DNA of 41,305 nt from a virus. Within the stretch, counting starts at the first letter, position 1. Each line of letters begins with the position of its first letter. The stretch lies in the IMG/VR virus record IMGVR_UViG_3300045589_000107. One strand, 5' to 3'. Shown one piece after another: positions 12,802 through 40,035 of the stretch. The position numbers and the translations under genes are program-made. A model generated the notes under the pieces. The model searched no databases, was not told the DNA's origin, and saw only the letters and a program-made list of their open reading frames with translations.

Positions 12802-12814
12802 GAAAATCAATTTA

Positions 12815-21586: not shown

Positions 21587-21588
21587 CA

Positions 21589-22376: not shown

Positions 22377-22388
22377 GGAGACGATTTA

Positions 22389-23024
22389 ATGGCAACAGTA
22401 GGGCTTTACCAAATCCAGATGGCACTGGTTGATGAATTACAAAAACTGATCTCTGGCACGGGCACGGGTTTGGGAACAGATGGGATTTACACCGTTGATC
22501 ACAAAGATTTAGGTACAAAGACAGCCAACATCACTGGCTTAGCAGGAACCATTACTAAGATTTATGGCAACAACAACGTTCAAGACGTTACGGTCGGAAC
22601 TTCAGAACCGTCAGTAGCCTTGGACATTAACAACTTGGACTACGCAATCAAGCAACAAATCAAAGGGTTTGTCAGTGATAGCAAGGGTGGCTATACAGAT
22701 GAGAACTTGAAGGCTCATGTGGCTTTGTTAATTACCACACAAACAATTGATCGGGTGCACTTTGTTTACTATGGCTTTGGTGACGGTATTATGACCGAAA
22801 CAGCAGCCAACATTCAGACTGACGCAGCAGCCGAACAACGTGTGGATGATGCTCTGACTTACACAGCGCTCTCCACTGCGGCTTTCAACAATCAGCCATA
22901 CAAGATTTACAGCGACCTGGATAGTAATTTTGACAAGGCCAACATGTACAAAGAGGTGTTTGGTGGATATGTACTTCCCACAACGCCTGCTGGTGGTTCA
23001 GACAGCGGTACAGTTGGTGGTTAA
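22389..23024 (+). CDS. Major tail protein
   Basis: 211 aa. RBS AAGGAGA. Followed by a 200-bp spacer and the chaperone genes. Confidence 0.85.
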   Translation: MATVGLYQIQMALVDELQKLISGTGTGLGTDGIYTVDHKDLGTKTANITGLAGTITKIYGNNNVQDVTVGTSEPSVALDINNLDYAIKQQIKGFVSDSKGGYTDENLKAHVALLITTQTIDRVHFVYYGFGDGIMTETAANIQTDAAAEQRVDDALTYTALSTAAFNNQPYKIYSDLDSNFDKANMYKEVFGGYVLPTTPAGGSDSGTVGG

Positions 23025-23224
23025 GGCAGCGGTACGCAAGGCTAGTTACAAATAGTTAGTGCTGAGAAGCCGATTCTAAGGGCCAACTAAACAATAAGAC
23101 GAATGAGTTATACAGTAGCGAGCACTAGAATGACGAGCTCAACGCAGCCGGTAGCAGCACACTCATTGGGGCAGGTCCAATGGCCGGCATTTTTTAATAC
23201 TTAAAAAAAGGATGGATAGCACAC

Positions 23225-23581
23225 ATGAAAATTAAAGCAACGGCAATTAGCAACAAGGAACACGAGGTGAAGACCAGCAACAAGAACATGGAAAAGATGT
23301 ATGATCTTCAGCTCAAAATGGCAACATCTGATGATATTGCAGAAAAGGAACCAGTTGAAATCATCAAAACTCAAAGAGACATGATTCATGGCGCAATTGA
23401 TTTCTTGACTACTGTATTAGGGCTGGACAAAAAGGAACAAGATAAGCTGGCTGATATGGACTTCAAAGAGACTTTGGAAACAGTCAATTATGTATTTGAG
23501 CGCATGATGGGCATGTCTGATGAGGACATTGACCTGGCTAAGAAAAAGAGTGAGGCAGCCGACAAAAGTAAAGAGGGTTAG
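23225..23581 (+). CDS. Tail assembly chaperone (gpG-like)
   Basis: 118-aa acidic protein directly upstream of the tape measure gene. Confidence 0.8.
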   Translation: MKIKATAISNKEHEVKTSNKNMEKMYDLQLKMATSDDIAEKEPVEIIKTQRDMIHGAIDFLTTVLGLDKKEQDKLADMDFKETLETVNYVFERMMGMSDEDIDLAKKKSEAADKSKEG

Positions 23582-23795
23582 TCCCCCTGAACGTGTTTAT
23601 GAGCTACAAAACAGGCTGGAAGACTTTCGGTTGATGAAAAAACAATCGGCCATGTATTTTCACTGGTCTATGCAGGCCTATGACGATGCCGATTACTACG
23701 AAATGATGGAAATGATGTCATCCCGCGAGACAAAGGACCGTCCAGTTGACCCAGGCAAGATGTGGCAACAATACAACGAGACAAAGAAAGGGTGA
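23520..23795 (+). CDS. Tail assembly chaperone extension (gpT-like), reached by a frameshift into the +1 frame
   Basis: An open frame overlaps the end of 23225..23581 and is offset by +1 (23520-23225 = 295). It has no RBS of its own and ends 7 nt before the TMP start. Confidence 0.6.
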   Translation: MRTLTWLRKRVRQPTKVKRVSPPERVYELQNRLEDFRLMKKQSAMYFHWSMQAYDDADYYEMMEMMSSRETKDRPVDPGKMWQQYNETKKG

Positions 23796-23801
23796 TGTAT
23801 A

Positions 23802-28223: not shown

Positions 28224-28966
28224 CGACAGCTATTGGCGGCATCACATGGAATGGGCAAAACAGTGCCGACCTCGGTCTAGCAATTACCTACGACAGTAGC
28301 CAGCTGGCTGGTGGGTTATTCTCATCGACACTCACACAGATAGGTGGGCAGTCAGCAGCTGTTATTCAGGCCAACAACCGGTTCGATAACGTGTCCCAGG
28401 TGTTCAACTTCACCACATATCACCCTATTCAGCAGGCCGATATTGCTCCGCTGCACCGTGCAGTCCAAGGCTGGCTGTTTGTTGGTGTTGATTTAAGCCA
28501 GTATCAGCGGCTGGCATTCGACGGCTACCCAGATTACTACTGGCAGGCCGTGCCGAGTGCCCTGACACCGTTTTCGATGAACAAAGGGGTAATAACATTC
28601 TCGGTGACGTTTAGCTGCCTGCCCTATGCTTACGAGACTGGCGGTGACCAATATCAACCGGTCAGCACTGGGTCGGTCATCAACAATGTACGGCTGTATG
28701 ATGCTAAGCCATTATGGCACGTTAAAGGCACTGGCAATGGCAGCTTCGTGCTGAACGGCGTCACATACAATTTTCTGGGGATTAATGGTGACCTGTATGT
28801 TGATTCAGACACTGAAGAGGTTTACGACGCCAGCAATAACTATCAGCCGGGTATGGTACAGTTCGACAACTATGTGTTTCCAGCCCTTGATACGGGCAAG
28901 AACACGTTCGGAACGCTTACAAATATTACATTGGAGGTGATGCCAAGATGGCGGACGTTGCTTTAA
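28220..28966 (+). CDS. Distal tail protein (Dit)
   Basis: 248 aa. TTG start overlaps the TMP stop. In the syntenic position. Confidence 0.8.
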   Translation: MTTAIGGITWNGQNSADLGLAITYDSSQLAGGLFSSTLTQIGGQSAAVIQANNRFDNVSQVFNFTTYHPIQQADIAPLHRAVQGWLFVGVDLSQYQRLAFDGYPDYYWQAVPSALTPFSMNKGVITFSVTFSCLPYAYETGGDQYQPVSTGSVINNVRLYDAKPLWHVKGTGNGSFVLNGVTYNFLGINGDLYVDSDTEEVYDASNNYQPGMVQFDNYVFPALDTGKNTFGTLTNITLEVMPRWRTLL

Positions 28967-31779
28967 AATCTCCGCTGGTTTATGAACATAGCACAGACGA
29001 CCAATCCACGCTAGGGATGGGGCACGTGGAGCATGTGATCAGCTGCCAGGTGGAGTCTGTATATGACCAATTTCCACAAATGACACTGATTTGCGAATAC
29101 ACGCAGTCTAACGCCGACCGCCTGCTGAAAGACAGGATTCTGCTGGCAGATGTGGGCGATGGCTGGCACAAGCAGATGTTCCGTATCAATTCAGTCGAGA
29201 GCGATTGGTCAGACAATCAGCGTGAAATGACGATTATTGCCACGCATGTAGCGAGCGATTTGTCAGGGAACGTGCTGACCGCCGATGTGAGCACGGCCAA
29301 TGCTAGTCCAAGCCAAGTGTGGGACATGGTTACATCAAATTTGGCTGAGCCAACTGATGTAACGGTCAACAGCAGCATTACCGATGTGGCCATCGTGAAC
29401 TGGGACGCTACTCAAGTCGACCAGCTGAGCAGCATTCTCTTCGGGCGCGACAATAACAGCCCATCTTTCACGAGTCTATATGACGCAGAATGGTGGTTTG
29501 ATAATTACACCTGGACATTTGAGCATCATGTTGGACGAGATACAGGCATTGTTATCAAATACGGCAAACATCTGAAGTCACTACAGAACACGGACACGGT
29601 CGCCGGTGTATATACTGCTGTGCGGCCAATCAGTAAATATACGCCTGGCCAGACCGGCACTGGCGATGACAGTAATGTCATTTCACTGGATGGTACGGCA
29701 ATGATCCAGTATGCCGGCACAGGCGGATTGCCCGTGTTCGACACTCCATTCAAAGGGCAAGTGGCGACTGGCAAGACACTGACCAATGGCTCACGGTTCA
29801 AAATCTATAGCTATGCCGAATCTGGCACAGTCAATGACCACACATGGTACAACCTCGGCGGTAAGCAGTGGGTCGATGGCAATTATCTGTCATTTGATAA
29901 AGGCCAAACAGGACAGTTCCCCAGCACCGTGGGCAACAAGGCAACAGGCAAGGGCACGATCGCAGCTGGCCTGGCTGACAAACCAGGCGTCATTTCAAAA
30001 TATGATGGCGTAATTACAGTCAATTACGTAGGCCCTGGCAAAGTGGCAATTTGGGACAGTCCCTGGGCCGGTCGTCATGTGACGGGCAGTTATATGGCTA
30101 ATGGATCGGCTTACAACGCATATGGCAAAGCCACTGACGAATCAGGCCAAACTTGGTACAACTTGGGCGGTAATCAATGGGTCAGTGCTCAGTATGTCGC
30201 GCTTGACAAGGCAAAAGACTATGCCTATCAAAAGGTACGCGGGATCGGCACAGCTAAGGTCGATAAAGGCAAGATTGCGCTGTGGAACCGGCCCAGCTTT
30301 AACGGCTCGATTGTCCGCATGATTAGTTCTGGCACTCGCTGGCAAATCTATGGCGAAGCGTCGGGTGGCGGCAGCAGTACATGGTACGACCTCGGTGGCA
30401 ACCAATGGATTGACGGTCAATACATGGACTTTTCAGCGGCTAATGACGTGGAACCACAGCCAGTCGGTGGCGACAGCAGTAGTGACACGAGCAGCGACAC
30501 GTCCGACACAGTGTGGAGCTACAATTCGCCAGGCACGTGGAATACTCGGGTCAAGCAGTACACCACGGGCAATCAGGTCACGATCTATGGACAAGGAACA
30601 GCCGGTGGGGCTACTTGGTACAACATCGGCACAAACGAATGGCTGGCCGCTGATTACTTGACGTTTGACAACAACACCGATGTGGATCCCAGCGGGTCTG
30701 CTGATGACATGACTGCAGAAGCCACTGAAGTCACGGTAACCCTGCCGGAAAAATACATTGCCGTACCGATGCCAGATGGTCAGCAATACGAGCATCAGCG
30801 CATCGTCAATTTCGATGCAAGCAGTTACAACATCGACAATGTGGATGACCTTCGGTCAATCACCCAGGCCTACATCCGAGACAATAATATTGGCAAGCCG
30901 CAGATCACGCTGACCATCGATTACGATGAGCTACAAGGGCATTACCAAAACCTGGCAAGCGTCCGGTGTTATGACGTTGTCACAGTGTTTCTGCCAGAGA
31001 TCGGTCTTAACATCAAGGCCGAAGTCACTGATGTTATTTATGACACACTGCTGCAGCAAAACACCCAGGTGACCATTGGCAATCGGCCGCTAACAACGAC
31101 AGATGATCTGCAAGCTTGGGTCAAGAAGGCAGAAGACAAAGCTAGCACGGCGGCTCAGAAAAATAGTGATGCCGTGGATGATATGGACTTGGCTTGGAAA
31201 AAGGCAGTAGATGACACTAATGCAGCATTTAAGGATGGTGATCTTGCTAATGCGCAGCAGCAGACAGAATGGGAAAATCAATTCAAACAAACAATTGACC
31301 AAGCGATCAATGACTTCAAGAGTACCGTGGGCAGCGAGGTGGAGCAGGCCAACAAGTTAGCCAGTATTGTCCACTACGACAATAACGAGGTCAGTTTCTT
31401 CAACGGGTCTGGTACCCAAGTTGGTAGTTTAGGCGCAGGTGGACTGGTTTATTATAACGGGTCTGGCAACCCGACAACCGTAGTGAGTTCGGACGGCAAA
31501 ATCATCGCTAGTGAGATTGCAGGGAATGAGCTGACAGGCACTGTGATTAAAGGTGGAGAAATTGACGGCGGCACGGTAGACGGAATGGATTTTCTTAGGA
31601 GTAAAAGCGGAAGCAGTTACGCTGTGATGTCTTATGCAAATGGGTTTTCCATTAGCAATGGATCAGCGACCAGTGCCCTAGGACCGACCTCATTAAAAAT
31701 TCAAGGGGAATCACTGCAGCTGATTGATGTCAAGAACTTACACTATTTACTAGAAAAGAATGGGATGGATCATGGATAA
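28948..31779 (+). CDS. Tail-associated lysin-like protein (Tal) with four SH3b-like WYNLGGxQW repeats
   Basis: 943 aa. Repeats end in TWYNLGGKQWVDGNYLSF, TWYNLGGNQWVSAQYVAL, TWYDLGGNQWIDGQYMDF and TWYNIGTNEWLAADYLTF. Confidence 0.85.
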   Translation: MADVALKSPLVYEHSTDDQSTLGMGHVEHVISCQVESVYDQFPQMTLICEYTQSNADRLLKDRILLADVGDGWHKQMFRINSVESDWSDNQREMTIIATHVASDLSGNVLTADVSTANASPSQVWDMVTSNLAEPTDVTVNSSITDVAIVNWDATQVDQLSSILFGRDNNSPSFTSLYDAEWWFDNYTWTFEHHVGRDTGIVIKYGKHLKSLQNTDTVAGVYTAVRPISKYTPGQTGTGDDSNVISLDGTAMIQYAGTGGLPVFDTPFKGQVATGKTLTNGSRFKIYSYAESGTVNDHTWYNLGGKQWVDGNYLSFDKGQTGQFPSTVGNKATGKGTIAAGLADKPGVISKYDGVITVNYVGPGKVAIWDSPWAGRHVTGSYMANGSAYNAYGKATDESGQTWYNLGGNQWVSAQYVALDKAKDYAYQKVRGIGTAKVDKGKIALWNRPSFNGSIVRMISSGTRWQIYGEASGGGSSTWYDLGGNQWIDGQYMDFSAANDVEPQPVGGDSSSDTSSDTSDTVWSYNSPGTWNTRVKQYTTGNQVTIYGQGTAGGATWYNIGTNEWLAADYLTFDNNTDVDPSGSADDMTAEATEVTVTLPEKYIAVPMPDGQQYEHQRIVNFDASSYNIDNVDDLRSITQAYIRDNNIGKPQITLTIDYDELQGHYQNLASVRCYDVVTVFLPEIGLNIKAEVTDVIYDTLLQQNTQVTIGNRPLTTTDDLQAWVKKAEDKASTAAQKNSDAVDDMDLAWKKAVDDTNAAFKDGDLANAQQQTEWENQFKQTIDQAINDFKSTVGSEVEQANKLASIVHYDNNEVSFFNGSGTQVGSLGAGGLVYYNGSGNPTTVVSSDGKIIASEIAGNELTGTVIKGGEIDGGTVDGMDFLRSKSGSSYAVMSYANGFSISNGSATSALGPTSLKIQGESLQLIDVKNLHYLLEKNGMDHG

Positions 31780-32002
31780 TACGATGAGTTATGCAACAAA
31801 TGCGCTGGCTAATCACATGGCTGGCATGGCGGCACAGATTGGCATTCTTCAGCAAAAGGTAGATGAGTTGAGCCAAGCCAACCAGATTCTGAAGGATCAG
31901 CTAAAGCAGAAAGAAGGTAATGTGAATGACACTGCCAAACCTGACACTGACAATGGACAAGCGAACGAACAGCCAGCAGAAGCTACACCTGCGGCAAAGT
32001 GA
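31760..32002 (+). CDS. Hypothetical coiled-coil protein (80 aa)
   Basis: Overlaps the Tal stop. The start is uncertain (31760, 31772 or 31784). Confidence 0.5.
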   Translation: MGWIMDNTMSYATNALANHMAGMAAQIGILQQKVDELSQANQILKDQLKQKEGNVNDTAKPDTDNGQANEQPAEATPAAK

Positions 32003-33851
32003 GCGTGGTCTGAGTTTAACTGCTCAGCTGCTGGACTATGATGGTACGCCTTACAATCTGACTGGCTTATCAGTTCGGTTCAAGGACGCTAAAGCCGGCG
32101 GTAAATCGGTATCTGATGACAATGTGACCGTTTCGACTGACCCGAAAACCGGTGTCGTCACATACCCAGTTCACAGCCAAGTTTTTGCCGCAGACGGTAT
32201 TGGCTGGTTCGAGTTGTACAACACAGGTGGGACCTTAGTAGATAGCACCCAAAATATCGTTATCAAAGTTGAACAAGACATTTCTGGCACTATAGACAAT
32301 AGCGACTACATCAGCGGACTAGATGGCATCAAAGCTCAGCTTCAAGGCATCGTCAATAGTGCCCAGCAAACATTAGACAATGCAGTTTCAGGCGCCAACA
32401 CCGCAGCTAGTAATGCAAATCAAGCCGCACAAGCAGCACAAACATTGGCTAATGACATCCCTAATAACCCTAAGTATCGTGGACCACAAGGCGTTAAAGG
32501 CGACGATGGCAAGACGCCGTATTTCCACACAGCATGGTCTTATAGCGCAGATGGTACGGACGGTTTTACGACTGTTTATCCGAATTTGAATTTGTTTACA
32601 GGGACTTCTGATAAGCCTTCTACAATAACAGGGGGAAATTGGAACCAGGCCATTATCGGTGTATACAAGACACCTAAAGTTGGCCAAGAATACACGCTTT
32701 CTGTTGAAGTTCCTGAGGCTGACCATGACGCCATTATGGAAGTATATCGCTGGAACAATGCGGGAGCCAGAATAGACGCCGCTTGCCCCCCCACGCTGAT
32801 AAAGTCTGGAGAAAAGGCTCATACAACATTTACTTGGCCAGACCCTGGAGATAGTGGTGCAACGCAATTTGCAGCCGACTTGGCATGGACTAATGGCACA
32901 GATACCGGTACGTATTCGTACTGTAAAGCTAAATTAGAAATCGGTAACACTGCTTCTCCTTGGATGCCCTCAGCTAGTGAAGTCACAACTGCTGACTGGC
33001 CGAGCTACATTGGTCAGTACACAGATTTCACACAGGCTGACAGCACTAATCCAGCTGATTACAACTGGGCGCTTTTCAAAGGTGCGGATGGCAAAGACGG
33101 GAAAGATGGTACGGGTATTCAGCTCAAAGGATCAGCTGATTCTGTCGATAAGCTGCCGGCCACTGGTAACACAACTGGTGATACCTATCTAGTAGCCGGC
33201 CACTTGTACATCTGGGAAAGCAACGCTTGGGCCGATGGTGGTGAGCTGCAGGGGCCAAAGGGAGATGATGGCCGTCAAGTCTGGTTGTACCCTTTTGATC
33301 GAGGAGATAACCAGACAAGTAGCTATTGGTCAGACTTGAGGCCTGTTCCATCAGCTACTAATCCTCCTAAAGTAGGAGATACATTAATTGATATTAATGG
33401 CAACCTTTATCAAATAACCAGAGTTACTGTTAAAGTTGATCCTACTTATGGCGGCGGCACATTCGACTATGGTAGTAAAATCATTAATCTCAAAGGTGCC
33501 ACTGGTGCACCTGGCGCAAAAGGCGATACTGGCAACACTGGTGCTACTGGTCCCGCTGGTCCTGCCGGAAAATCTGCTTACCAAGTATGGCTGGACGCTG
33601 GCAACACCGGTACAGAAGCCGACTATTTAGCATCACTAAAAGGTGCTACCGGCCCTGCTGGCAAGGATGGCACGACACCTGACCTAACGCCTTACTTAAA
33701 GTCCACCGATGCTGCAAACACCTATCAGACCCCAACACAGGTCCAAGCACGCGTGGATGCCAAGATTGTACCTGTGGCTGATGAAACGACAGCATCTAGT
33801 GATTCTTCCAAAAACACTACCGTCCTTTACCTTGTACCGGAGGCAAGCTAA
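31926..33851 (+). CDS. Baseplate upper protein (BppU-like N-terminus) / receptor-binding fibre with collagen-like G-X-Y stretches
   Basis: N-terminus is LHLRQSERGLSLTAQLLDYDGTPYNLTGLSVRFKDAKAGG. G-X-Y run is GATGAPGAKGDTGNTGATGPAGPAGKS. The start is 31926 or 31953. Confidence 0.8.
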   Translation: MTLPNLTLTMDKRTNSQQKLHLRQSERGLSLTAQLLDYDGTPYNLTGLSVRFKDAKAGGKSVSDDNVTVSTDPKTGVVTYPVHSQVFAADGIGWFELYNTGGTLVDSTQNIVIKVEQDISGTIDNSDYISGLDGIKAQLQGIVNSAQQTLDNAVSGANTAASNANQAAQAAQTLANDIPNNPKYRGPQGVKGDDGKTPYFHTAWSYSADGTDGFTTVYPNLNLFTGTSDKPSTITGGNWNQAIIGVYKTPKVGQEYTLSVEVPEADHDAIMEVYRWNNAGARIDAACPPTLIKSGEKAHTTFTWPDPGDSGATQFAADLAWTNGTDTGTYSYCKAKLEIGNTASPWMPSASEVTTADWPSYIGQYTDFTQADSTNPADYNWALFKGADGKDGKDGTGIQLKGSADSVDKLPATGNTTGDTYLVAGHLYIWESNAWADGGELQGPKGDDGRQVWLYPFDRGDNQTSSYWSDLRPVPSATNPPKVGDTLIDINGNLYQITRVTVKVDPTYGGGTFDYGSKIINLKGATGAPGAKGDTGNTGATGPAGPAGKSAYQVWLDAGNTGTEADYLASLKGATGPAGKDGTTPDLTPYLKSTDAANTYQTPTQVQARVDAKIVPVADETTASSDSSKNTTVLYLVPEAS

Positions 33852-34285
33852 TGCCAATTTACTATGGTAGCAAAAAAATCAAGTCACTGTACTTTGGTGG
33901 CAAAAAAATTGCTAGTGCTTGGTACGGTGGAAAAGTAATATATCGTGATGTGGTCGCACTATTTTCAGGACCAAAGACAACCAAGGGGTTTGATGATTAT
34001 ATTTATGTTGACATCCCGGCTGGGACAAAGTCAATTGTGATCAAACTTGATAAATATATTACCAGTGCAACGGCAGAAATGAACGGGACAACTATTAGTA
34101 TAAAAAACGGCTGCATTGTTTTTCCCGTGCCAACTAGCGACTTTGAAGAATACATTGATGGTACAGTATCGTTTGATCTTTTGTTTTCCGATTCTAGTGG
34201 CGAAAAGGTTTTGCAGATCAGCTGTATAGACCCCATGGGCAACGTTGGCAGTCCAGTAACTGTAGTAGGAATTTACGCAGGATAA
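33851..34285 (+). CDS. Hypothetical tail-associated protein (144 aa)
   Basis: RBS GGAGG lies 7 nt upstream. TAATG overlap with the fibre gene. Confidence 0.65.
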   Translation: MPIYYGSKKIKSLYFGGKKIASAWYGGKVIYRDVVALFSGPKTTKGFDDYIYVDIPAGTKSIVIKLDKYITSATAEMNGTTISIKNGCIVFPVPTSDFEEYIDGTVSFDLLFSDSSGEKVLQISCIDPMGNVGSPVTVVGIYAG

Positions 34286-34297
34286 AGGAGAATAAAA

Positions 34298-34660
34298 ATG
34301 GCAGAAACAGACACGTACAAACAGGTCTTCGTGACCTATCCGGTTCAGCAGCAGGACGGCAATTTTTATCATATTGACTACGTTCCCCAGTATGTACCGG
34401 TAGAATACCCGAAAACAACGGACCCGATCCCGGCCGAATTGCAAGGCAAAATTGCAAAATATGACTGGCAGACGGGCGAATGGATCGATTCTAAAATTGA
34501 CCCAACCACTGCGGCCATTACGGCTCTGCAAGCAAACGCTGCACTGCTCATGGTCCAGTTCACAACGATCAAAACTGCACTGGCAGGGTTACAGAAGCAA
34601 GTTGCGGCATTAACTAATCCGACAAGCACTACAGCAGCCACTACCAATAAGGAGGCGTAA
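34298..34660 (+). CDS. Hypothetical protein (120 aa)
   Basis: RBS AAAGGAGA. Precedes the XkdX-like gene. Confidence 0.65.
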   Translation: MAETDTYKQVFVTYPVQQQDGNFYHIDYVPQYVPVEYPKTTDPIPAELQGKIAKYDWQTGEWIDSKIDPTTAAITALQANAALLMVQFTTIKTALAGLQKQVAALTNPTSTTAATTNKEA

Positions 34661-34662
34661 GC

Positions 34663-34803
34663 ATGGACAGATTTGTGTTGATGTATTACAAGATGGGGTT
34701 GTTCGACAAGCCCACGATGCAGCTATTCGTACAAGCAGGGGAAATCACCGCTGACCAGTACAAGCAAGCCACAGGCGAGGATTATGTGGCACCGGCAGCG
34801 TAG
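34663..34803 (+). CDS. XkdX-family small protein (46 aa)
   Basis: MDRFVLMYYKMGLFDKPTMQLFVQAGEITADQYKQATGEDYVAPAA. RBS AAGGAGG. Not in the ORF track. Confidence 0.75.
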   Translation: MDRFVLMYYKMGLFDKPTMQLFVQAGEITADQYKQATGEDYVAPAA

Positions 34804-34817
34804 ATTGGAGGCAGATA

Positions 34818-35114
34818 ATGCACATTATTTTAGGTCTGTCGATTGCTGAATGGGCTGAAACACTGACTGCCCTTGGGGTGCTGGTGAGTGCTGGCAGCTG
34901 GCTGTTTAAGAAAATTGCTCTGGACCCGCTGCGTGAGGACATTCAGCGCTTGTCCGAGCAGATTGGGCAACAGCTCAAAGTCCACGAACAAACACTTGCG
35001 TCGATCAATGGGCGTATTAAGGAACATGACAAAGAACTCGGCAGCCACTCGGAACGAATTACCCGTCTGGAAGACCATGCAGGAATTAAGGAGGAAAAAG
35101 AGAATGAAGATTAA
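34818..35114 (+). CDS. Membrane-anchored coiled-coil protein of the lysis cassette
   Basis: N-terminal TM segment followed by a coiled coil. RBS GGAGG. Confidence 0.65.
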   Translation: MHIILGLSIAEWAETLTALGVLVSAGSWLFKKIALDPLREDIQRLSEQIGQQLKVHEQTLASINGRIKEHDKELGSHSERITRLEDHAGIKEEKENED

Positions 35115-35496
35115 TTGGAAAGTACGTTTTTTGAGCGTGAAGTTTTGGCTGGCCTTGGTGCCAGCTATTTTATTGGTCGGGCAAGCGGTCGCTGCGGTGT
35201 TTGGCTATAACTGGGACTTTGCTAGTCTGGGCAAGGAGCTGACTGGTGTGATCAATGCAGTATTCGCCGTGCTGGCTATTCTCGGAGTGGTGACGGATCC
35301 TACGACAGCTGGCGTTACCGACAGTGCCCAGGCACTCACTTACAGTAAACCAGCCAAAGATGCCGTACCGGATCCGGTACCGGCTGAACCGCTGCAAGCC
35401 AATGGGCAGGGCCAGCTGGTCAAGGACACTCTGCCAGACGGCTCTGCCGCGGACACCACTACGAATGGAGCTGACAGTAATGTCGTTCAGCATTGA
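35104..35496 (+). CDS. Holin (phi LC3-type)
   Basis: MKINWKVRFLSVKFWLALVPAILLVGQAV...GVVTDPTTAGVTDSAQALTY. ATG at 35104. Confidence 0.85.
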   Translation: MKINWKVRFLSVKFWLALVPAILLVGQAVAAVFGYNWDFASLGKELTGVINAVFAVLAILGVVTDPTTAGVTDSAQALTYSKPAKDAVPDPVPAEPLQANGQGQLVKDTLPDGSAADTTTNGADSNVVQH

Positions 35497-36370
35497 TGCC
35501 GCAATCAATTACATGTACAAGCTGCAAAAGGCTGGGGTCACTTACAGCATGGATGGCAGTCGCGTTGGCACAGATGGCACAGCTGACTGCTCAGGCGCTG
35601 TTTACGCGGCACTTCGTGCTGGCGGTATGCCCAGTGCTGGCTGGGTGCTCAACACCGAATCCATGCACAATTGGCTGTTAGCTAACGGCTGGCAGCGGGC
35701 AGCAGACAACAGCGACTGGAATGCCCAGCGCGGCGACGTGTTTATCTGGGGAAAGATTGGCGACAGTGCAGGTGCTGGTGGTCACACGGGTATCTTTGTT
35801 GACCACGACAACATTATCCACTGCAACTACGCACACAATGGTGTCAGCATCAACAATCATGACGCATACTGGGCCGCCGATGGGTGTCCCTATTTTTATG
35901 CGTATCGGTATGCCGGTGCGCAAGAAGCAGATCAAGGAGATGATACCGATATGGATTTGAGCAAGTTGACTAGCTTGGCACCAGTCACTGCCTACGGCGT
36001 GGCTTGGATCACTAACCCAAATGGGGCGGCCTTGTGGGACAACACCGGCAAGGTGATTAAACGCCTGCCTTATGGCACATCTTGGGTCGTAGTAGACGTC
36101 AACAAGGGTCGGCTTAACGTGGGCGGCTGGATCGACCCAGGGGATGCGGTAGTAAAGATCAACAAGGGCGCAGCTGGAGACTGGTCAGGCACCGTGGCCC
36201 GAGTAACCGCTGACGACGCATACACGCAAGCTCAGCCCAAGCCTAATCAAGCAGGTATCCAGTATCTGCCCAAAGGCAGCCGCTGGAAAGTCGTTGGTGT
36301 AAGCAAGGACGGGAATTATGTCAACATTGGCGGATACGTTGATGCCAGCAAGGTGAACATCGAATTGTAG
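35480..36370 (+). CDS. Endolysin: N-terminal CHAP/NlpC-P60-type peptidase plus two SH3b-like C-terminal repeats
   Basis: DGTADCSGAVYAAL...GGHTGIFV (Cys/His pair). ATG at 35480 overlaps the holin end. Confidence 0.88.
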   Translation: MSFSIDAAINYMYKLQKAGVTYSMDGSRVGTDGTADCSGAVYAALRAGGMPSAGWVLNTESMHNWLLANGWQRAADNSDWNAQRGDVFIWGKIGDSAGAGGHTGIFVDHDNIIHCNYAHNGVSINNHDAYWAADGCPYFYAYRYAGAQEADQGDDTDMDLSKLTSLAPVTAYGVAWITNPNGAALWDNTGKVIKRLPYGTSWVVVDVNKGRLNVGGWIDPGDAVVKINKGAAGDWSGTVARVTADDAYTQAQPKPNQAGIQYLPKGSRWKVVGVSKDGNYVNIGGYVDASKVNIEL

Positions 36371-36375
36371 CAGAA

Positions 36376-36404
36376 AACCCGGGGCTTCGGCCTCGGGTTT
36401 TTTT
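36376..36404 (+). terminator. Rho-independent terminator of the late operon
   Basis: AACCCGGGGC-TTCG-GCCTCGGGTT followed by a T-run. Confidence 0.85.
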
Positions 36405-36447
36405 GCGATCGGAAGAAGACTACAGGTATCCGTTCAGTAGGCATGCG

Positions 36448-36535
36448 TGCTATAATGTAATCGGTTTCCATCCCCCACTCAGGTTTGGAAGCGTACCGCC
36501 TTTGGCCCTGGGGAGCAATCCCTAGGGCTTTTTTT
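36448..36535 (+). ncRNA. Candidate sRNA unit A (promoter TGcTATAAT, C-rich loop hairpin, terminator)
   Basis: The -10 is at 36448..36456. Stem 36464..36470/36486..36492 carries the loop UCCCCCACUCAGGUU. The terminator 36505..36535 has a 10-bp stem plus T7. Confidence 0.5.
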
Positions 36536-36577
36536 GTGCCATCAAGCCTATTATGTGTATACCCATAATGGTCAAAG

Positions 36578-36665
36578 TGATATAATGAAGCCGATTGCAT
36601 TGTGCTATAATTTGGGTACGGCAACAGAATACCTTTCGGCCTCACTTCGGTGAGGCTTTTGTATT
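36578..36665 (+). ncRNA. Candidate sRNA unit B (tandem promoters TGaTATAAT and TGcTATAAT, UUCG-loop terminator)
   Basis: The -10 boxes are at 36578..36586 and 36603..36611. The terminator GCCTCAC-TTCG-GTGAGGC-TTTTGTATT is at 36639..36665. Confidence 0.4.
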
Positions 36666-36694
36666 GGCATGGCATAGACAATTCCCTTGATAAA

Positions 36695-36794
36695 TGGTAG
36701 TATGACTTTTGCCAGGGCATCATTCCCCCTGGCCCAGGTTTTCCTCAATAGTCACCACTTGGGGCTTCTAGCAGAAATTCTGGAGGCCCTTTTT
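36695..36794 (+). ncRNA. Candidate sRNA unit C (promoter TGgTAGTAT, two hairpins, terminator)
   Basis: Hairpin GCCAGGG-catcattcc-CCCTGGC is at 36711..36733. The terminator 36762..36794 has a 10-bp stem plus T5. Confidence 0.45.
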
Positions 36795-36827
36795 GTGTTT
36801 GATAAGATGGACATGACGGGCGATTCG

Positions 36828-36935
36828 TGTTATATTTCGGTTGTTGGAACTTTCCATTCTGACACCCCATGATCATCCTTCCCCCAGATGCGACGATCAT
36901 ACAAAAAACCCTGGCATAAATGCCGGGGATTTTTT
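36828..36935 (+). ncRNA. Candidate sRNA unit D (promoter TGtTATATT, C-rich loop hairpin, terminator)
   Basis: Hairpin 36869..36900 has the loop CUUCCCCCA. The terminator CCCTGGCA-taaa-TGCCGGGG plus T6 is at 36909..36935 and is flanked by A6. Confidence 0.45.
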
Positions 36936-36949
36936 GTGGGAAATGGTAT

Positions 36950-37213
36950 ACCTAATCAAAATGCCGATCGACGCAGGCAACTTAGACTAGCAGTAAGCAT
37001 ATTATGAGTGAGGACATTCCGAGGACAAATAGGCGTAAAGCACTGATACAATAGCATTATATACGCACGTCACCTCCATAGTGTACACTATTTCTGAGTT
37101 TTTCTGACCCCCAAAATGCCGATATAAAGGCGTTTTGGGGGGTTTCAATTGCTTTGAGTTTCATTCAACTTCAAAAAATTGAGGACAAATTGAGGATATC
37201 TAGGGACACCATT
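36950..37213. other. attP region with paired direct repeats (candidate integrase arm-type sites)
   Basis: CAAAATGCCGAT is at 36957..36968 and 37112..37123. GAGGACAAAT is at 37021..37030 and 37181..37190. Variants GAGGACATTCC (37010..37020) and GAGGATATC (37192..37200) also occur. The region lies directly downstream of int. Confidence 0.55.
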
Positions 37214-38380
37214 TTATAGCTTAGACAAGGCTTTAACTGTGGCGCTGATTTGGTCTAACTCGACGTCTTTAAGCATGTGAGCGTAAACGCGAAGCGTGAT
37301 CTGGACGTTGGCATGTCCCAGCCGTTTGGAAATGTAACTAATATCCACGCCGTGAGCCAGTAGATAAGCAACATGACTGTGCCGGAGACCGTGGAATGTG
37401 ATCACGGGGTTGATGCCCAGCTTTTGCTCAATGTCTTTGAGGTGGCGGTTGACGATGCCATTGCTCAGTAGCTCATGGCGATAGTTGCGGAATACCAGAT
37501 GATACGGGTCCCGGTAACCTGTCGCCAGATTGCTGGCCTCTTGCTCGGTTTTGAGTTGGCGCAACAGCGCCACGAGTTGTGGAGAAATATCAATATCTCT
37601 GTTACTGGTCGGATTTTTCGTTGGCATGAAGCCAGTCCTAAATTTGTAATCCCATGTGTGCCGAATGTGCACTACAGCGTTGTCCAGATCCACATTGGGC
37701 CAATCCAATCCGCCAACCTCTGCGTATCTTGCACCAGTGAGAATGCCAAAGGCAATCATGTAGTTGTAAATCTTGGATAGCTTCGCGTTGCCTGTGCAAA
37801 ATTTGAGCAACTTATCAAAGTCGTCTGCTTGAATATATTTAAGGTCGGCGGCTTTACCTTTGTTTCCGGAGAGGACAACATCATGCGTAAAGTTGGTGTA
37901 CAGTATCTGGTCATCAACGGCAGAGTTGACCATTGCCCGGACGTACCCGTTGAGTTTACTGACGGTGTCCTTTGACCGATTAACAATTGCCTTTTTATTA
38001 CCAATACGTTTGACGCGGTGTGTGGCAAAATGATTGATGAATGCTTGCCAGTCGCTTTTGCTAATAGTGCGCAGCTTTCGGCTAGTGCCAAAATAGTCGA
38101 CCAGTTCCTTACGAATTGTCGCATAGCGGGCCTCAGTGACACGCGTATGCTTGCCGGCTTTGTAAAGGTCAATCCAGCGATCCCAATATTCTATGAGGGT
38201 CGTGTCTTGCTTGTTCAAGTCAGCGCCCTGCATCAAATGATGCTCCACTTCAGCCGCAGCATTTTCTGCCATCTTTTTTTTAGCGAACCCACCCAATGTT
38301 TTCTGATGTCGCACCCCGTTTGAATCCGTATAATTGACCACGTACGTCCAGGTTTTTCCACGTTTGCGAAAGCTTGCCAT
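37214..38380 (-). CDS. int: Tyrosine recombinase / phage integrase
   Basis: The start is trimmed to MASFRKRGKTWTYVV (RBS GGGAGG). C-terminal catalytic motifs are HGLRHSHVAYLL and RLGHANVQITLRVYAH. Confidence 0.93.
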   Translation of the reverse strand: MASFRKRGKTWTYVVNYTDSNGVRHQKTLGGFAKKKMAENAAAEVEHHLMQGADLNKQDTTLIEYWDRWIDLYKAGKHTRVTEARYATIRKELVDYFGTSRKLRTISKSDWQAFINHFATHRVKRIGNKKAIVNRSKDTVSKLNGYVRAMVNSAVDDQILYTNFTHDVVLSGNKGKAADLKYIQADDFDKLLKFCTGNAKLSKIYNYMIAFGILTGARYAEVGGLDWPNVDLDNAVVHIRHTWDYKFRTGFMPTKNPTSNRDIDISPQLVALLRQLKTEQEASNLATGYRDPYHLVFRNYRHELLSNGIVNRHLKDIEQKLGINPVITFHGLRHSHVAYLLAHGVDISYISKRLGHANVQITLRVYAHMLKDVELDQISATVKALSKL

Positions 38381-38490
38381 TGTGTTTACCTCCCAATCTG
38401 GTAAAATAGGGTATACGAAGAGCGTTGCCTTACGAATGGCTTTCATGGCATCGCTCTCCCACTCCATTCATTCAATTTTTCACCCTTGCT

Positions 38491-38529
38491 CACCCGTCTC
38501 GGTCAAGAGATGCGGGTGGGCTTTTTTTT
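38491..38529 (+). terminator. Strong + strand intrinsic terminator located upstream of the int start (antisense orientation)
   Basis: CACCCGTCTC-ggtcaa-GAGAtgCGGGTG, then GGC and T8. Confidence 0.55.
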
Positions 38530-38535
38530 AATATC

Positions 38536-38635
38536 CGGATTTAAAATCCGAGTATTATTTTCGACATTTTGAATGTCGAAACCTCGTGCTATGTACGGGC
38601 CGTGAGGCCCGAGAAAGGTCGCATTGGGAATGCGA
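38536..38635. repeat. Cluster of four perfect short palindromes/hairpins
   Basis: CGGATTTaAAATCCG (38536..38550). TTTCGACATT-ttg-AATGTCGAAA (38559..38581). CGGGCC-gtga-GGCCCG (38596..38611). TCGCATT-ggg-AATGCGA (38619..38635). Confidence 0.8.
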
Positions 38636-38637
38636 GC

Positions 38638-39132
38638 TCACAGCCCTAACAGTTGCTTTTTCTTGGCGTCATATTCTGACTGCGTAATTGCACCATCATC
38701 CAGCAATTGCTTGAACTTTGCCAGCTCATCGGCCGGAGAATCAATTTTCTCAGGATCGTTGCCATGTTTGAAAGAATCGATTTGTTTTACAATATAATCA
38801 TTCATTTTCTGGGATTCACGTCCAGTTTTTCTGTGAATGGCAGACAAAATTACCGTATTTGCATCTGCCATTGCAGCGCTTGAAGTGCCGATAATCCCAA
38901 CTCTTTGGTTTGTGGCAAGTTCAGCATTAGTGATAAATTGCAGATACCCGTTTGCCCAAATCGTAGGCTTTTTATATTCAACTGCTTTTATGTCTTGATA
39001 ATAAATTTTCCGATTGCCCTTTATGCCTTGAGCCAAAAATCCGGTAATGGTCTTGCGTGAGATTACTACGTGATCATTGTAAGCATAAACAATCCCGTTA
39101 GTTCCCTTTAGTTTCATTATTTCATCATTCAT
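38638..39132 (-). CDS. bPH/DUF4429-like protein with a C-terminal SHOCT motif (lysogeny-module accessory gene)
   Basis: RBS AAGGAGG. The C-terminus DELAKFKQLLDDGAITQSEYDAKKKQLLGL is SHOCT-like. Located between int and the repressor. Confidence 0.8.
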   Translation of the reverse strand: MNDEIMKLKGTNGIVYAYNDHVVISRKTITGFLAQGIKGNRKIYYQDIKAVEYKKPTIWANGYLQFITNAELATNQRVGIIGTSSAAMADANTVILSAIHRKTGRESQKMNDYIVKQIDSFKHGNDPEKIDSPADELAKFKQLLDDGAITQSEYDAKKKQLLGL

Positions 39133-39201
39133 AGTTTGCCTCCTTACAAATATTTGGTACCTCCGTATTTTACCCCTCGCAGAGCAGGGCGGCGAAAAAA
39201 G

Positions 39202-39867
39202 TTACAGAATGACCACGTAAACCACTACCTTGCCAATTATCTTGACATCTTCGTCTTGCAGTTCTTCGTATGTATAGGTGATTGGCCGAAAACGTTTGTC
39301 AGTGGAATCTGGGATAAAGGTAATGATCTCTTTTTCGCGGTCATTGTAGAAGTACTTGACAGCATAATCACCGGCGTCTGCAAACACAACAATATCCCCG
39401 TCTTGAAGATCCTGAATATCATCGTAAGCCTTGACAGCTATAAGAGACCCATCGGGAATTGTTTGGTCCATCGACTCCCCATTAACATGCATCATCAGGA
39501 GATCTGTGTCGCCAGCATATTTGCCGAGAACCTTGTCAGATATTTGGATAGACTCAATTTCATCGGAGGTGAATGGATCCACACTGCACAGAACGCCGGC
39601 TGAAATACCGGCGGGAATGTACTTGTACGTGCCAACCCCGGAAACATTTAGTTGGTTATGATCGGTGGTCAAATAGCTTATGTTAACGCCATAATGGTCT
39701 GCAATTGTTTGCAATGACCCACTGCGAGGCATTTTTTTAGCATGCAACCAGTCCGATACTGTCGAGAAGGCGACGCCAATGCGATCAGACAGTTCCGTCA
39801 AATTTTCTCCACGAGAATCCATTAGCTGTTGCAGGTTCTTCGCAAATATTGTCTTGATGTCGTCCAA
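39202..39867 (-). CDS. cI-like repressor (XRE HTH plus S24 LexA-type peptidase domain)
   Basis: TTG start lies 7 nt after GGAGG. HTH is LTELSDRIGVAFSTVSDWLHAKKMP. The S24 part is VNGESMDQTIPDGSLIAVK. Confidence 0.9.
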   Translation of the reverse strand: MDDIKTIFAKNLQQLMDSRGENLTELSDRIGVAFSTVSDWLHAKKMPRSGSLQTIADHYGVNISYLTTDHNQLNVSGVGTYKYIPAGISAGVLCSVDPFTSDEIESIQISDKVLGKYAGDTDLLMMHVNGESMDQTIPDGSLIAVKAYDDIQDLQDGDIVVFADAGDYAVKYFYNDREKEIITFIPDSTDKRFRPITYTYEELQDEDVKIIGKVVVYVVIL

Positions 39868-40035
39868 AATGTTTCCTCCTATTAGTGGTAAGAATGTTTT
39901 CTACGGTTCCCATACTACCACCAAAGCGAAAATAATCAACGCCGCTAGAAAAATATTTTTCGTTGATGGCGAAATTTTTGTTGCATTTCGCTAAAAGCGT
40001 GATAGTATAGACAATGTAGAAAGGAGGAAAAAATC
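39868..40035. promoter_or_regulatory. Genetic switch: divergent promoters and operator-like repeats
   Basis: The - strand promoter has TTGATT (39934..39939) and TGgTAGTAT (39912..39920). The + strand promoter has TTGCAT (39981..39986) and TGaTAGTAT (40000..40008). Palindrome GCGAAAT-N9-ATTTCGC (39969..39991). Inverted repeat ATCAACG/CGTTGAT (39935..39941 / 39961..39967). Confidence 0.7.

What the first reader, a model, noticed from the sequence alone, without database searches (positions are those of the whole stretch)
36440..36940. Array of four promoter-to-terminator non-coding units with a shared UCCCCC element between endolysin and attP
Seen in sequence:
- The roughly 540 bp after the late-operon terminator contain no ORF with a usable RBS.
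- They carry five extended -10 matches on the + strand: TGcTATAAT 36448, TGaTATAAT 36578, TGcTATAAT 36603, TGgTAGTAT 36695, TGtTATATT 36828.
- A GC-rich hairpin plus T-run follows within about 45-100 nt (36505..36535, 36639..36665, 36762..36794, 36909..36935).
- Three units display the same C-rich element: UCCCCCACUCAGGUU as a 15-nt loop (36471..36485), CAUUCCCCCUGG (36721..36732), and CCUUCCCCCAG in a loop (36877..36887).
- In units A and C the UCCCCC is followed 3-5 nt later by CAGGUUU, which suggests paralogy.
- The complement reads GGGGGA(N)AUG, which looks like a Shine-Dalgarno sequence plus a start codon.

Inference: this is a small family of trans-acting, RBS-occluding sRNAs carried as a moron cluster. 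After integration it would sit at the prophage end next to attR and be transcribed outward. I do not recall such an sRNA array being described for this phage group.
Basis: partly seen in the sequence, partly recalled or inferred. Interest (0 to 1): 0.75.

Follow-up and report, generated by a model that had tools for sequence, protein, structure and literature searches.

The report
Prophage array of small RNA genes
Between the lysis gene and the integration site, this temperate Schleiferilactobacillus phage carries four tiny non-coding genes, each with its own promoter and terminator; related prophages conserve and reshuffle them, they look like regulatory small RNAs, and their targets are unknown.

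Summary
Window 36440..36940 contains four + strand promoter-to-terminator units with no conserved ORF. All three perfect TGNTATAAT matches in the 41 kb window fall here. So do 4 of its 7 strongest terminator-like hairpins and 3 of its 7 TCCCCC sites.

The host is Schleiferilactobacillus harbinensis. Homologous arrays (69-89% identical) lie at the same place, between the endolysin terminator and the att arm, in several S. harbinensis prophages. Unit D alone also occurs in S. perolens.

Across four alleles, identity is 92% for the -35 boxes, 85% for the extended -10 boxes and 77% for the terminators, against 45% for everything else. Unit D keeps a three-hairpin fold with compensatory changes and an invariant UUCCCCC loop.

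Units are present or absent, and they recombine as cassettes (A+/-, B1/B2, C1/C2, D1/D2/D3).

- The second -10 of unit B is not conserved.
- The UCCCCC of unit C reads UCACCC in its closest relatives.
- Unit B has no C-rich element.
- A model of unit D does not detect A or C, so paralogy is unsupported.

No Rfam family matches. The units are most likely moron-type, trans-acting small RNAs with C/U-rich seeds that pair with Shine-Dalgarno regions, as in RsaE/RoxS, IsrR and SprX. I found no target, and there are no expression data.

The parts
35483..36370 (+). Endolysin (Amidase_5/NlpC-P60), the last late gene and left boundary of the array
   Evidence: Pfam Amidase_5 E 2.4e-48. Homologues are annotated in S. 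harbinensis.
36374..36401 (+). Late-operon (endolysin) intrinsic terminator
   Evidence: Fold -22.5 kcal/mol, z -4.5. Inverted repeat I5. Conserved after the endolysin in all related loci.
36448..36456 (+). Unit A extended -10 (TGcTATAAT)
   Evidence: Identical in L025.
36463..36536 (+). Unit A RNA, about 74 nt (5' end inferred). Hairpin 36464-36492 with a 15-nt loop (36471-36485) carrying UCCCCC; terminator 36504-36529.
   Evidence: Fold -32.8 kcal/mol, z -3.0. Terminator scan. Present only in the window, L041 and L025; absent from the L026a and L040 arrays.
36548..36571 (.). Conserved imperfect palindrome C(C/T)ATTATG-N8-CATAATGG just upstream of the unit B promoter; candidate operator
   Evidence: 22 of 24 positions invariant over 4 alleles, including the 70%-identical copy. 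The only such site in the window.
36578..36586 (+). Unit B extended -10 (TGaTATAAT), the conserved one of the two
   Evidence: Conserved as TGATAYAAT in all alleles. The second -10 at 36603-36611 is destroyed in L026a and L040.
36593..36664 (+). Unit B RNA, about 72 nt (5' end inferred). 5' hairpin plus terminator 36638-36657. No C-rich element. The body is replaced by unrelated sequence in allele B2.
   Evidence: The terminator and the flanking CCTTTCGG...TTGGCATGGCATAGACAA are invariant in all alleles.
36675..36703 (+). Unit C promoter: -35 TAGACA, 17-nt spacer, extended -10 TGgTAGTAT
   Evidence: Promoter scan. The -35 is invariant, the -10 is kept as TGNTANTAT, and the spacer diverges in C2 alleles.
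36710..36797 (+). Unit C RNA, about 88 nt (5' end inferred). Hairpin 36711-36733 whose 3' arm is the C-run; unpaired pyrimidine-rich linker GGUUUUCCUCAAUA; terminator 36761-36790.
   Evidence: The C2 allele has an analogous hairpin (GUUGGG/CCCAAU) and a CUUUUUCUUUCCCC linker. The terminator stem shows two double compensatory changes between alleles (read).
36808..36836 (+). Unit D promoter: -35 TGGACA, 17-nt spacer, extended -10 TGtTATATT
   Evidence: Best promoter-like match in the region, 10 of 12. The boxes are conserved in 5 alleles, including S. perolens, while the spacer is largely different.
36842..36937 (+). Unit D RNA, about 95 nt (5' end inferred). SL1 36842-36864; CCCC linker 36865-36868; SL2 36869-36900 with loop 36878-36891 carrying the invariant UUCCCCC (36879-36885); terminator 36909-36928 plus U-run. 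An A6 run precedes the terminator, so it could also terminate minus-strand transcripts.
   Evidence: Fold z -4.4. The same three-hairpin fold appears in 6 variants. Model R1 finds all copies. 98.9% of cells are paired, 6 pairs have changes on both sides, and 0 of 500 shuffles reach that.
36948..37213 (.). attP region (inferred). GAGGACA repeats at 37010, 37022, 37181 and 37192 flank hairpin 37108-37141. Homology with the other arrays ends at 36947 (GTGGGAAAT).
   Evidence: Repeat family D3 and inverted repeat I4. The alignment end point is the same in all arrays. The hairpin is 77-79% similar to one beyond the array in integrated prophages.
37214..38467 (-). Tyrosine integrase, right boundary
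   Evidence: Pfam Phage_integrase plus Arm-DNA-bind_4.

Best explanation
Window 36440..36940 is a tandem array of four independently transcribed small non-coding RNA genes: A about 74 nt, B about 72 nt, C about 88 nt and D about 95 nt. Each has an extended -10 sigma-A-type promoter and its own intrinsic terminator. The array is accessory 'moron' cargo at the right end of temperate Schleiferilactobacillus harbinensis siphophages, between the endolysin terminator and the P arm of attP. After integration it lies at the attR end and points outward.

The units behave as exchangeable cassettes. They are present or absent, and different alleles are joined at the conserved promoter and terminator blocks.

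The most likely mode of action is inferred, not shown. The RNAs are made from the prophage. A, C and D use unpaired C/U-rich segments (the UCCCCC loop of A, the UUCCCCC loop and CCCC linker of D, the UUUUCCUC linker of C) to base-pair with G-rich Shine-Dalgarno and start-codon regions of mRNAs in trans, blocking translation. This is the logic of the C-rich-seed sRNAs of Gram-positive bacteria. Unit B has no such seed and may act differently.

The promoter-terminator architecture, non-coding status, conservation and RNA fold are shown here. Transcription, 5' ends, trans action and targets are inferred.
For: Local signal:
- All 3 perfect TGNTATAAT sites in the window, 4 of the 7 strongest terminator-like hairpins, and 3 of 7 TCCCCC sites fall within 500 nt on one strand.
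- The phage's own early promoter upstream of the cro-like gene is also of the TGnTAGTAT type.

Conservation:
- Homologous arrays lie at the same position in S. harbinensis prophages L025, L026/27/38/42 (two copies each) and L040. An identical copy occurs in a second sample (L041). Unit D alone occurs in L002 and in S. perolens L003.
- Over four alleles, invariant positions are 92% in -35 boxes, 85% in extended -10 boxes, 77% in terminators and 92% in the palindrome, against 45% elsewhere.
- The promoter spacers of C and D diverge while the boxes stay.

Structure of unit D:
- All variants share the three-hairpin fold.
- 98.9% of cells are paired, against at most 51% when partners are slid. Six pairs change on both sides, against 1.9 in shuffles (0 of 500).
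- The model detects the untrained S. perolens copy at 36 bits.
- UUCCCCC is invariant in the SL2 loop, while the SL1 loop and the linkers vary.

Other points:
- The C terminator shows compensatory C-G to U-A changes.
- No ORF is conserved on either strand.
- The same intergenic slot holds other morons in relatives: MazE/PemK, a restriction-modification system and hypothetical ORFs. Some related prophages lack the array (L001, L039).
- Published precedent covers single-stranded C-rich regions pairing with SD sequences (IsrR, PMC9410917; 6C, PMC6486639; RoxS, PMC5419742) and adjacent, independently expressed sRNA genes on a Firmicute prophage (sprY/sprX2 on phi12, PMC8501977).
Against: - There are no expression data of any kind. 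Promoters, 5' ends and termination are all predictions.
- The family was found in one genus only, so the covariation rests on 8 distinct D sequences, and the alignment was fitted to the model.
- The C-run of unit C is not conserved (UCACCC in L025 and L026a) and is partly buried in a stem. Unit B has no C-rich segment.
- Unit A is known from two nearly identical copies, so nothing can be said about selection on it.
- In B and C the promoter and terminator blocks are far better conserved than the RNA bodies. That could mean the signals are what is selected, not the RNAs.
- No convincing target was found in the phage genome or in about 349 kb of related sequence. The host genome could not be searched.
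- Any C/U-rich RNA will look complementary to an SD, so the complementarity argument is weak on its own.
Confidence: 0.5

Rival explanations
1. Signals rather than RNAs. The region is a stack of terminators, with incidental or decayed moron promoters, that insulates the late operon from attP and the antisense int gene, and insulates the prophage end from host transcription. The short transcripts have no function of their own. Some parts are scars of deleted moron genes.
For: - Terminators and promoter boxes are much better conserved than the bodies of B and C.
- In L002, unit D lies at the 3' end of a 61-aa ORF and serves as its terminator. The window ORF 36687..36872 ends with the same 10 residues.
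- The A terminator is an allele of the endolysin terminator seen alone in L039.
- The unit D terminator in the window could act on both strands.
Against: - An insulator does not need four outward promoters whose -35 and -10 boxes are kept while the spacers drift.
- SL1 and SL2 of unit D are not terminators, yet they keep pairing through compensatory changes, and the loop motif is invariant across two species.
- Arrays persist in a prophage remnant at 70% identity.
Confidence: 0.15
2. Small RNAs that do not act by occluding ribosome-binding sites. Possibilities include protein-binding or sponge RNAs, decoys against host defence, or RNAs aimed at competing phages. The cassette exchange would then reflect diversifying selection.
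For: - Alleles with unrelated bodies (B1/B2, C1/C2) sit between identical promoter and terminator blocks, and arrays are mosaics (L040 = B1+C2+D2).
- The slot otherwise holds defence-type cargo: restriction-modification in L035, MazEF in L026, AAA/DUF6414 in L044.
- Unit B lacks a C-rich seed.
- SprY on phi12 acts as a sponge, not on SD sequences (PMC8501977).
Against: - No partner was identified.
- No similarity to any Rfam family, including ToxI-type antitoxins.
- No adjacent toxin or effector gene in the window.
Confidence: 0.15
3. A cis or antisense role at attP, like the sib retroregulation of phage lambda. Minus-strand int transcripts run through attP into the complement of unit D, terminate at its terminator, and pair with D RNA. 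Int expression would then differ between the circular phage, where int and the array are joined, and the prophage, where they are separated.
For: - Geometry in the window: int (minus strand, ends at 37214), then attP, then unit D.
- The scan lists no minus-strand terminator-like site between int and the D hairpin.
- The D terminator has an A6 run before it and a U6 run after it.
Against: - The A-run is missing in D alleles L025, L026a, L026b and L040.
- This would explain only D, not A-C.
- The array is joined to at least two different att/int modules.
Confidence: 0.08
4. The units encode very small proteins rather than RNAs.
For: Mechanical ORFs exist: a 20-aa TTG ORF at 36709, a 16-aa ATG ORF at 36868, and a 41-aa minus-strand ORF at 36870 preceded by AAGGA.
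Against: - None is conserved. Indels between D1 and D2 change the frame, the minus-strand ORFs differ in every allele, and most lack an SD.
- Substitutions preserve base pairing instead.
Confidence: 0.03

Closest known systems
SprX2/SprY sRNA gene pair on Staphylococcus aureus prophage phi12 (PMC8501977)
   Same: Adjacent sRNA genes about 50 bp apart on a temperate Firmicute phage. Each is independently expressed and ends in a Rho-independent terminator. SprY is predicted to form three stem-loops, like unit D. Presence follows the prophage.
   Different: No sequence similarity. Two genes rather than four. SprY has no C-rich region and acts as an RNAIII sponge. The expression and targets of SprX/SprY are shown by experiment; nothing here is.
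C-rich-seed sRNAs of Gram-positive bacteria: RsaE/RoxS, IsrR, FsrA, and 6C of Actinobacteria (PMC9410917, PMC5419742, PMC6486639)
   Same: Short RNAs that end in a terminator and expose runs of 4-7 C in loops or linkers. These pair with G-rich SD regions without a need for Hfq. Unit D has two such regions (a CCCC linker and a UUCCCCC loop), like the multiple C-rich regions of IsrR and RoxS.
   Different: Those are core-genome, single-copy genes conserved across genera. No Rfam model matches here. These units are phage cargo restricted to Schleiferilactobacillus, and pairing with any SD is untested.
Prophage-encoded sRNAs and anti-sRNAs of enterobacteria (AgvB and AsxR in EHEC, PMC4104026) and prophage sRNA candidates of group A Streptococcus (PMC2765633)
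   Same: Non-coding regulatory cargo of lysogens, sometimes several per prophage, variably present between strains.
   Different: The EHEC RNAs depend on Hfq and mimic or sponge core sRNAs. There is no homology. A four-gene head-to-tail array with cassette-like allele exchange is not described in the papers I read.
Phage morons (accessory genes with their own promoter and terminator, inserted between conserved genes; my own knowledge of the concept)
   Same: Own promoter and terminator, location between lysis genes and att, and presence or absence among otherwise related prophages.
   Different: Classical morons encode proteins. These units have no conserved ORF.

Membership tests
Any Rfam 15 family (including RsaE/RoxS, 6C, Lacto-int, ROOL, GOLLD, ToxI, c4 antisense) | Match to the family covariance model at or above its gathering score | tested here: not met
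   cmscan of 36200..37400 at E up to 10 gave only chance-level hits (best 20.4 bits against a gathering score of 49), mostly driven by terminators. At gathering thresholds the whole window has only a tRNA-like hit at 11614-11686.
C-rich-seed trans-acting sRNAs of Gram-positive bacteria (functional class, not a homology family) | Unpaired C-rich segment (at least 4 C) in a loop or linker | tested here: met
   Unit A has a loop with UCCCCC. Unit D has a CCCC linker and a UUCCCCC loop that is invariant in 8 distinct sequences. Unit C meets this only in part: its C-run is half in a stem and reads UCACCC in L025 and L026a. Unit B does not meet it.
C-rich-seed trans-acting sRNAs of Gram-positive bacteria (functional class, not a homology family) | Discrete transcript with its own promoter and a Rho-independent terminator | tested here: inconclusive
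   Sequence signals are present and conserved, but no transcript data are available.
C-rich-seed trans-acting sRNAs of Gram-positive bacteria (functional class, not a homology family) | Seed pairs with the SD/start region of target mRNAs and represses them | not testable with these tools
No convincing target was found in the phage or in 349 kb of held loci.
Moron (accessory transcription unit of a temperate phage) | Own promoter and terminator; inserted between conserved genes; present or absent among related phages | tested here: met
   Promoter and terminator for each unit. Arrays with 0, 1, 3 or 4 units sit behind 93-94% identical endolysins.
Type I or type III toxin-antitoxin RNA | Adjacent small hydrophobic toxin ORF (type I), or a tandem repeat array followed by a toxN-like gene (type III) | tested here: not met
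   No conserved or hydrophobic small ORF. The units are not repeats of one another. The next gene is the integrase.
Lambda sib-type retroregulator | Site located beyond attP downstream of int, so that integration separates it from int | tested here: met
   Only the geometry is met, and only in the window. The features needed on the minus strand are not conserved in other D alleles. RNase III processing cannot be tested here.

The most novel reading that the evidence does not exclude
The array is an exchangeable library of small RNA genes, in which nearly invariant promoter and terminator blocks serve as recombination joints. Prophages would swap RNA bodies (B1/B2, C1/C2, D1-D3, A present or absent) under diversifying selection, for example to silence translation-initiation regions of competing phages or mobile elements. 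That would be an RNA-based form of superinfection exclusion. Unit D would be a fixed core member that also couples to int expression across attP.
Probability: 0.1. Interest if true: 0.8.

Novelty: new member of a known kind. Interest (0 to 1): 0.5.

Why it matters
Regulatory RNAs carried by phages of lactic acid bacteria are almost unexplored, and gene callers see this region as empty. One pipeline even calls a spurious 134-aa ORF across it (L041).

If the four units are expressed in lysogens, they are lysogenic-conversion factors that act on RNA in a food-fermentation species. They would be a compact case of several sRNA genes travelling and recombining together.

Unit D is a good candidate for a new RNA family. 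It has a defined fold, covariation, an invariant C-rich loop and a two-species range, and it is a tractable entry point: about 95 nt with a clear seed.

The modular reassortment at conserved promoter and terminator joints may also show how phages build and diversify non-coding cargo.

Tried and rejected
Searches for relatives that found nothing:
- blastn (distant mode) of 36371-37213 against 50,697 phage records, and of 36404-36947 against PLSDB plasmids: no match.
- Exact or degenerate DNA patterns for units A, C1 and D2, and for the B/C junction, in IMG/VR: no hits.
- The 16-mer from the D loop gave 15 IMG/VR hits. Only L002, L003/L007 and L009 were real; the rest were chance matches in coding DNA of unrelated phages.
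- A degenerate SL2 pattern found only the known copies.
- The single metagenome scan gave one contig, L038.
- The single GTDB scan, with the endolysin as query, gave only S. harbinensis and S. perolens.
- Exact look-up of the window's own endolysin failed. The useful loci came from near-identical cluster members.

Target searches that led nowhere:
- The RNAduplex scan of the window gave only sites inside ORFs: 8929-8958 and 33247.
- The scan for a G-run followed by a start codon found only generic SD sequences.
- The 10-mer complement scan of all held sequence found nothing at a translation start.
- A short blastn of the D loop against phages found nothing.

Explanations rejected:
- One large structured RNA of the ROOL/GOLLD type: no Rfam hit, and promoters are conserved inside the region.
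- Type I or type III toxin-antitoxin: no toxin.
- Riboswitch or leader: no downstream ORF and no Rfam hit.
- Small proteins: no conserved frame.
- A high-copy host repeat or MITE: the units were found only at prophage ends.
- TCCCCC as an integrase arm site: the GAGGACA repeats around 37010-37198 fit that role better, and the ACTACACA repeats fit it in the other att module.
- Mimicry of a CRISPR repeat: considered from memory only. No repeat-like hairpin is present, and I could not test it without the host CRISPR arrays.
Full report
**1. What is in the sequence**

The window is a temperate siphophage genome.
- An Amidase_5 endolysin (35483..36370, +) is followed by 843 nt of non-coding DNA.
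- Then come a tyrosine integrase (37214..38467, -), a SHOCT/DUF4429 protein and a CI-like S24 repressor.

The consensus scan finds + strand terminator-like hairpins at 36504-36529, 36638-36657, 36761-36790 and 36909-36928. It also finds -35/-10 pairs with a TG extension for units C and D.

This is more than chance would give.
- The only three perfect TGNTATAAT matches in 41.3 kb, on either strand, are at 36448, 36578 and 36603.
- Only seven terminator-like sites in 1..40000 have at least 8 pairs and at least 5 G-C pairs, and four of them are these.
- TCCCCC occurs seven times in the window on both strands, and three of those are here on the + strand.

Each unit folds better than its shuffles, with z from -2.2 to -4.4. 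The C-run lies in a 15-nt loop in A and in the apical loop of the second hairpin in D. In C it forms part of the 3' arm of a stem.

**2. Origin and relatives**

Neither the phage collection nor the plasmid collection holds anything similar to the intergenic region. Rfam gives only chance-level hits driven by terminators.

The endolysin places the phage in Schleiferilactobacillus harbinensis. The window itself is a 41,305-bp JGI contig.

Fetching the DNA around near-identical endolysins gave the comparative material. blastn with the intergenic region shows these arrangements:
- **L041:** 100% identical over all 843 nt, from a second sample, also in the phage form with int next to it.
- **L025** (S. 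harbinensis chromosome): units A-D, 86% identical. Three moron ORFs and a duplicated endolysin 3' end lie between the endolysin and the array.
- **L026/L027/L038/L042:** units B-D directly after the endolysin (84%). A second copy (70%) follows a mazE/pemK pair. Each copy is followed by GTGGGAAATTGTCCCACTACACAATT.
- **L040:** a mosaic array, 76% identical.
- **L002/L022** (strain DSM 16991): unit D only, fused to the 3' end of a 61-aa ORF.
- **L003/L023** (S. perolens): a diverged unit D with its own TGATATATT promoter.
- **L001, L039, L034, L036, L044:** no array.

All arrays end at the same point, GTGGGAAAT (window 36947). After it comes an att-arm region, which differs between the window and the others.

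**3. Evidence for selection**

I aligned four alleles (window, L025, L026a, L026b; pairwise identity 69-89%) and counted invariant positions by feature.

| Feature | Invariant positions |
|---|---|
| -35 boxes | 92% |
| Extended -10 boxes | 85% |
| Terminator stems | 77% |
| Palindrome upstream of unit B | 92% |
| All other positions | 45% |

- The spacers of the C and D promoters are largely different between alleles, while the boxes and their spacing are kept.
- The second -10 of unit B (36603) is destroyed in L026a and L040, so the conserved B promoter is the TGATATAAT at 36578.
- The phage's early promoter upstream of the cro-like gene is also of the TGnTAGTAT type, so this promoter style is in use in this phage.

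**4. Unit D is a structured RNA**

All six variants fold on their own into the same three hairpins:
- a 5' hairpin (SL1);
- a hairpin with a C-rich loop (SL2);
- the terminator.

I built a covariance model from six copies. It finds every D copy, including the S. perolens copy that was not used for training (36 bits, E 2e-5). It does not find units A or C.

On the model-fitted alignment of 8 distinct sequences:
- 98.9% of cells form standard pairs, against at most 51% when the partners are slid by 1 to 3 columns.
- Six pairs change on both sides, against 1.9 in shuffles (0 of 500 shuffles reach six).
- SL1 has G-C/A-U and G-U/G-C/A-U series. SL2 has a C-G/U-A swap.

The alignment was fitted to the structure and the sequences are related, so these numbers are supportive rather than a formal test. 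UUCCCCC is invariant in the SL2 loop, while the SL1 loop, the linkers and the 3' half of the SL2 loop vary.

**5. Units A, B and C**

- **A** occurs only in the window, L041 and L025, and is nearly identical in them. Elsewhere the endolysin terminator is joined directly to the A-type terminator. In L039 that terminator follows the endolysin on its own.
- **B** has two alleles with unrelated bodies (B1, B2) between invariant promoter and terminator blocks. It has no C-rich segment.
- **C** also has two alleles. C1 carries UCCCCC only in the window and reads UCACCC in L025 and L026a. C2 has UUACCCCC.
  - Both C alleles keep a hairpin whose 3' arm is the C-run, followed by an unpaired pyrimidine-rich linker (GGUUUUCCUC in C1, CUUUUUCUUUCCCC in C2).
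  - The terminator stem shows C-G/U-A swaps between L026b and L040.
- **L040** combines B1 with C2 and D2. The window and L026a share D1, and L025 and L026b share D2, so units reassort at the conserved joints.
- In every allele of A, C and D, a CAU lies 0-4 nt 5' of the C-run. The complement therefore reads G-run, 0-4 nt, AUG. I saw this after the fact and it rests on three independent units.

**6. Not coding**

ORFs with an SD-like sequence differ in every allele. Indels between D1 and D2 change the frame. The 135-aa minus-strand ORF 36316..36723, which one pipeline calls as a gene in L041, crosses three terminators and is frame-shifted in L026a and L040.

**7. Function**

No target could be identified.
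- The best complementary sites in the phage lie inside ORFs.
- G-rich translation starts in the phage are generic SD sequences.
- A 10-mer complement scan of all 349 kb held, and a short blastn against phages, gave nothing.
- The host genome could not be searched.

The mechanism therefore rests on analogy.
- In Gram-positive bacteria, unpaired C-rich regions are the usual seeds of trans-acting sRNAs and pair with SD sequences (IsrR, PMC9410917; RoxS, PMC5419742; 6C, PMC6486639).
- Adjacent, independently expressed sRNA genes are known on an S. aureus prophage (sprY and sprX2, about 50 bp apart on phi12; PMC8501977).
- Prophage sRNAs are also known in EHEC (PMC4104026) and group A Streptococcus (PMC2765633).

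I put about 0.5 on 'independently transcribed moron sRNAs, with A, C and D acting through C/U-rich seeds on SD regions'. The existence of sRNA genes is more likely than the specific mode of action.

**8. Rivals**

- **Signals only** (terminator stack or moron scars), 0.15. Favoured by the better conservation of signals than of the B and C bodies, and by L002, where D ends an ORF. Disfavoured by promoter conservation and by covariation in D's non-terminator hairpins.
- **sRNAs with another mode of action** (sponge, decoy, anti-phage), 0.15. Favoured by cassette exchange and by defence-type neighbours in this slot.
- **A sib-like link to int across attP**, 0.08. The geometry fits in the window, and the D terminator there has an A6 run before it and a U6 run after it. 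The A-run is absent from the other alleles.
- **Small proteins**, 0.03.

**9. Verdict**

The units are real, conserved and non-coding, and they sit at the prophage end.
- 'A family sharing UCCCCC' holds for D, probably for A, only loosely for C, and not for B. Occlusion of ribosome-binding sites is plausible but untested.
- The array is a new, unannotated member of a known kind: sRNA morons on prophages, with C-rich seeds as in other Gram-positive bacteria.
- The less usual features are four genes in tandem and cassette-like allele exchange.
- Interest is moderate at 0.5. It would rise if expression and targets were shown.

Noticed in passing
window 11614-11686 (+): Rfam tRNA model hit at 45.9 bits (gathering score 29), although ARAGORN reports no tRNA in the window. 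The cloverleaf is intact, but the anticodon loop reads CGAAAAAA (8 nt instead of 7). It could be a tRNA-like element or an unusual phage tRNA.
   Followed up: partly
window 36548-36571: Imperfect palindrome C(C/T)ATTATG-N8-CATAATGG immediately upstream of the unit B promoter. 22 of 24 positions are invariant over four array alleles, including the 70%-identical copy. It is the only such site in the window and is a candidate operator for an unknown regulator.
   Followed up: partly
window 37009-37033 and 37180-37204; hairpin 37108-37141: Four GAGGACA/GAGGATA repeats in two pairs flank a strong 13-bp hairpin. These are probably integrase arm-type sites and the attP core region. The other att module, in L025, L026, L040, L001 and L002, has ACTACACA repeats at the same position. 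A similar hairpin (77-79% identical) follows the array in the integrated prophages.
   Followed up: partly
window 36901-36937: The unit D terminator has an A6 run before the stem and a U6 run after it. It lies downstream of int (minus strand) on the far side of attP, so integration would separate int from it, as with lambda sib and tI. The A-run is absent from D alleles in L025, L026 and L040.
   Followed up: partly
L026/L027 4912-6925 (also L038, L042): The array is duplicated around a mazE/pemK toxin-antitoxin pair, and each copy is followed by GTGGGAAATTGTCCCACTACACAATT. This looks like tandem att sites: a prophage followed by a remnant that kept only the toxin-antitoxin pair and a 70%-identical array.
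   Followed up: partly
L009 4580-4640 (IMG/VR 3300044542_000304): A D3-type unit (promoter, SL1, start of SL2) is joined in the middle of its loop, right after CCCCCA, to internal endolysin coding sequence. This is either an assembly chimera or a recombination product.
   Followed up: no
window 36673-36681 and 36806-36814: The -35 regions of the unit C and D promoters share (C/G)ATAGACA(A/T). Upstream of C it is preceded by the invariant TTGGCATGGCA. This could be a shared regulator site or an UP-like element.
   Followed up: no
L035 1409-4646; L044 4014-5968; L025 4979-6315: The slot between the endolysin and the array or att holds other cargo in relatives: a type I-like restriction-modification methylase and S subunit (L035), an AAA ATPase plus DUF6414 (L044), and three hypothetical ORFs (L025). 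It is a hot spot for morons and defence genes.
   Followed up: no
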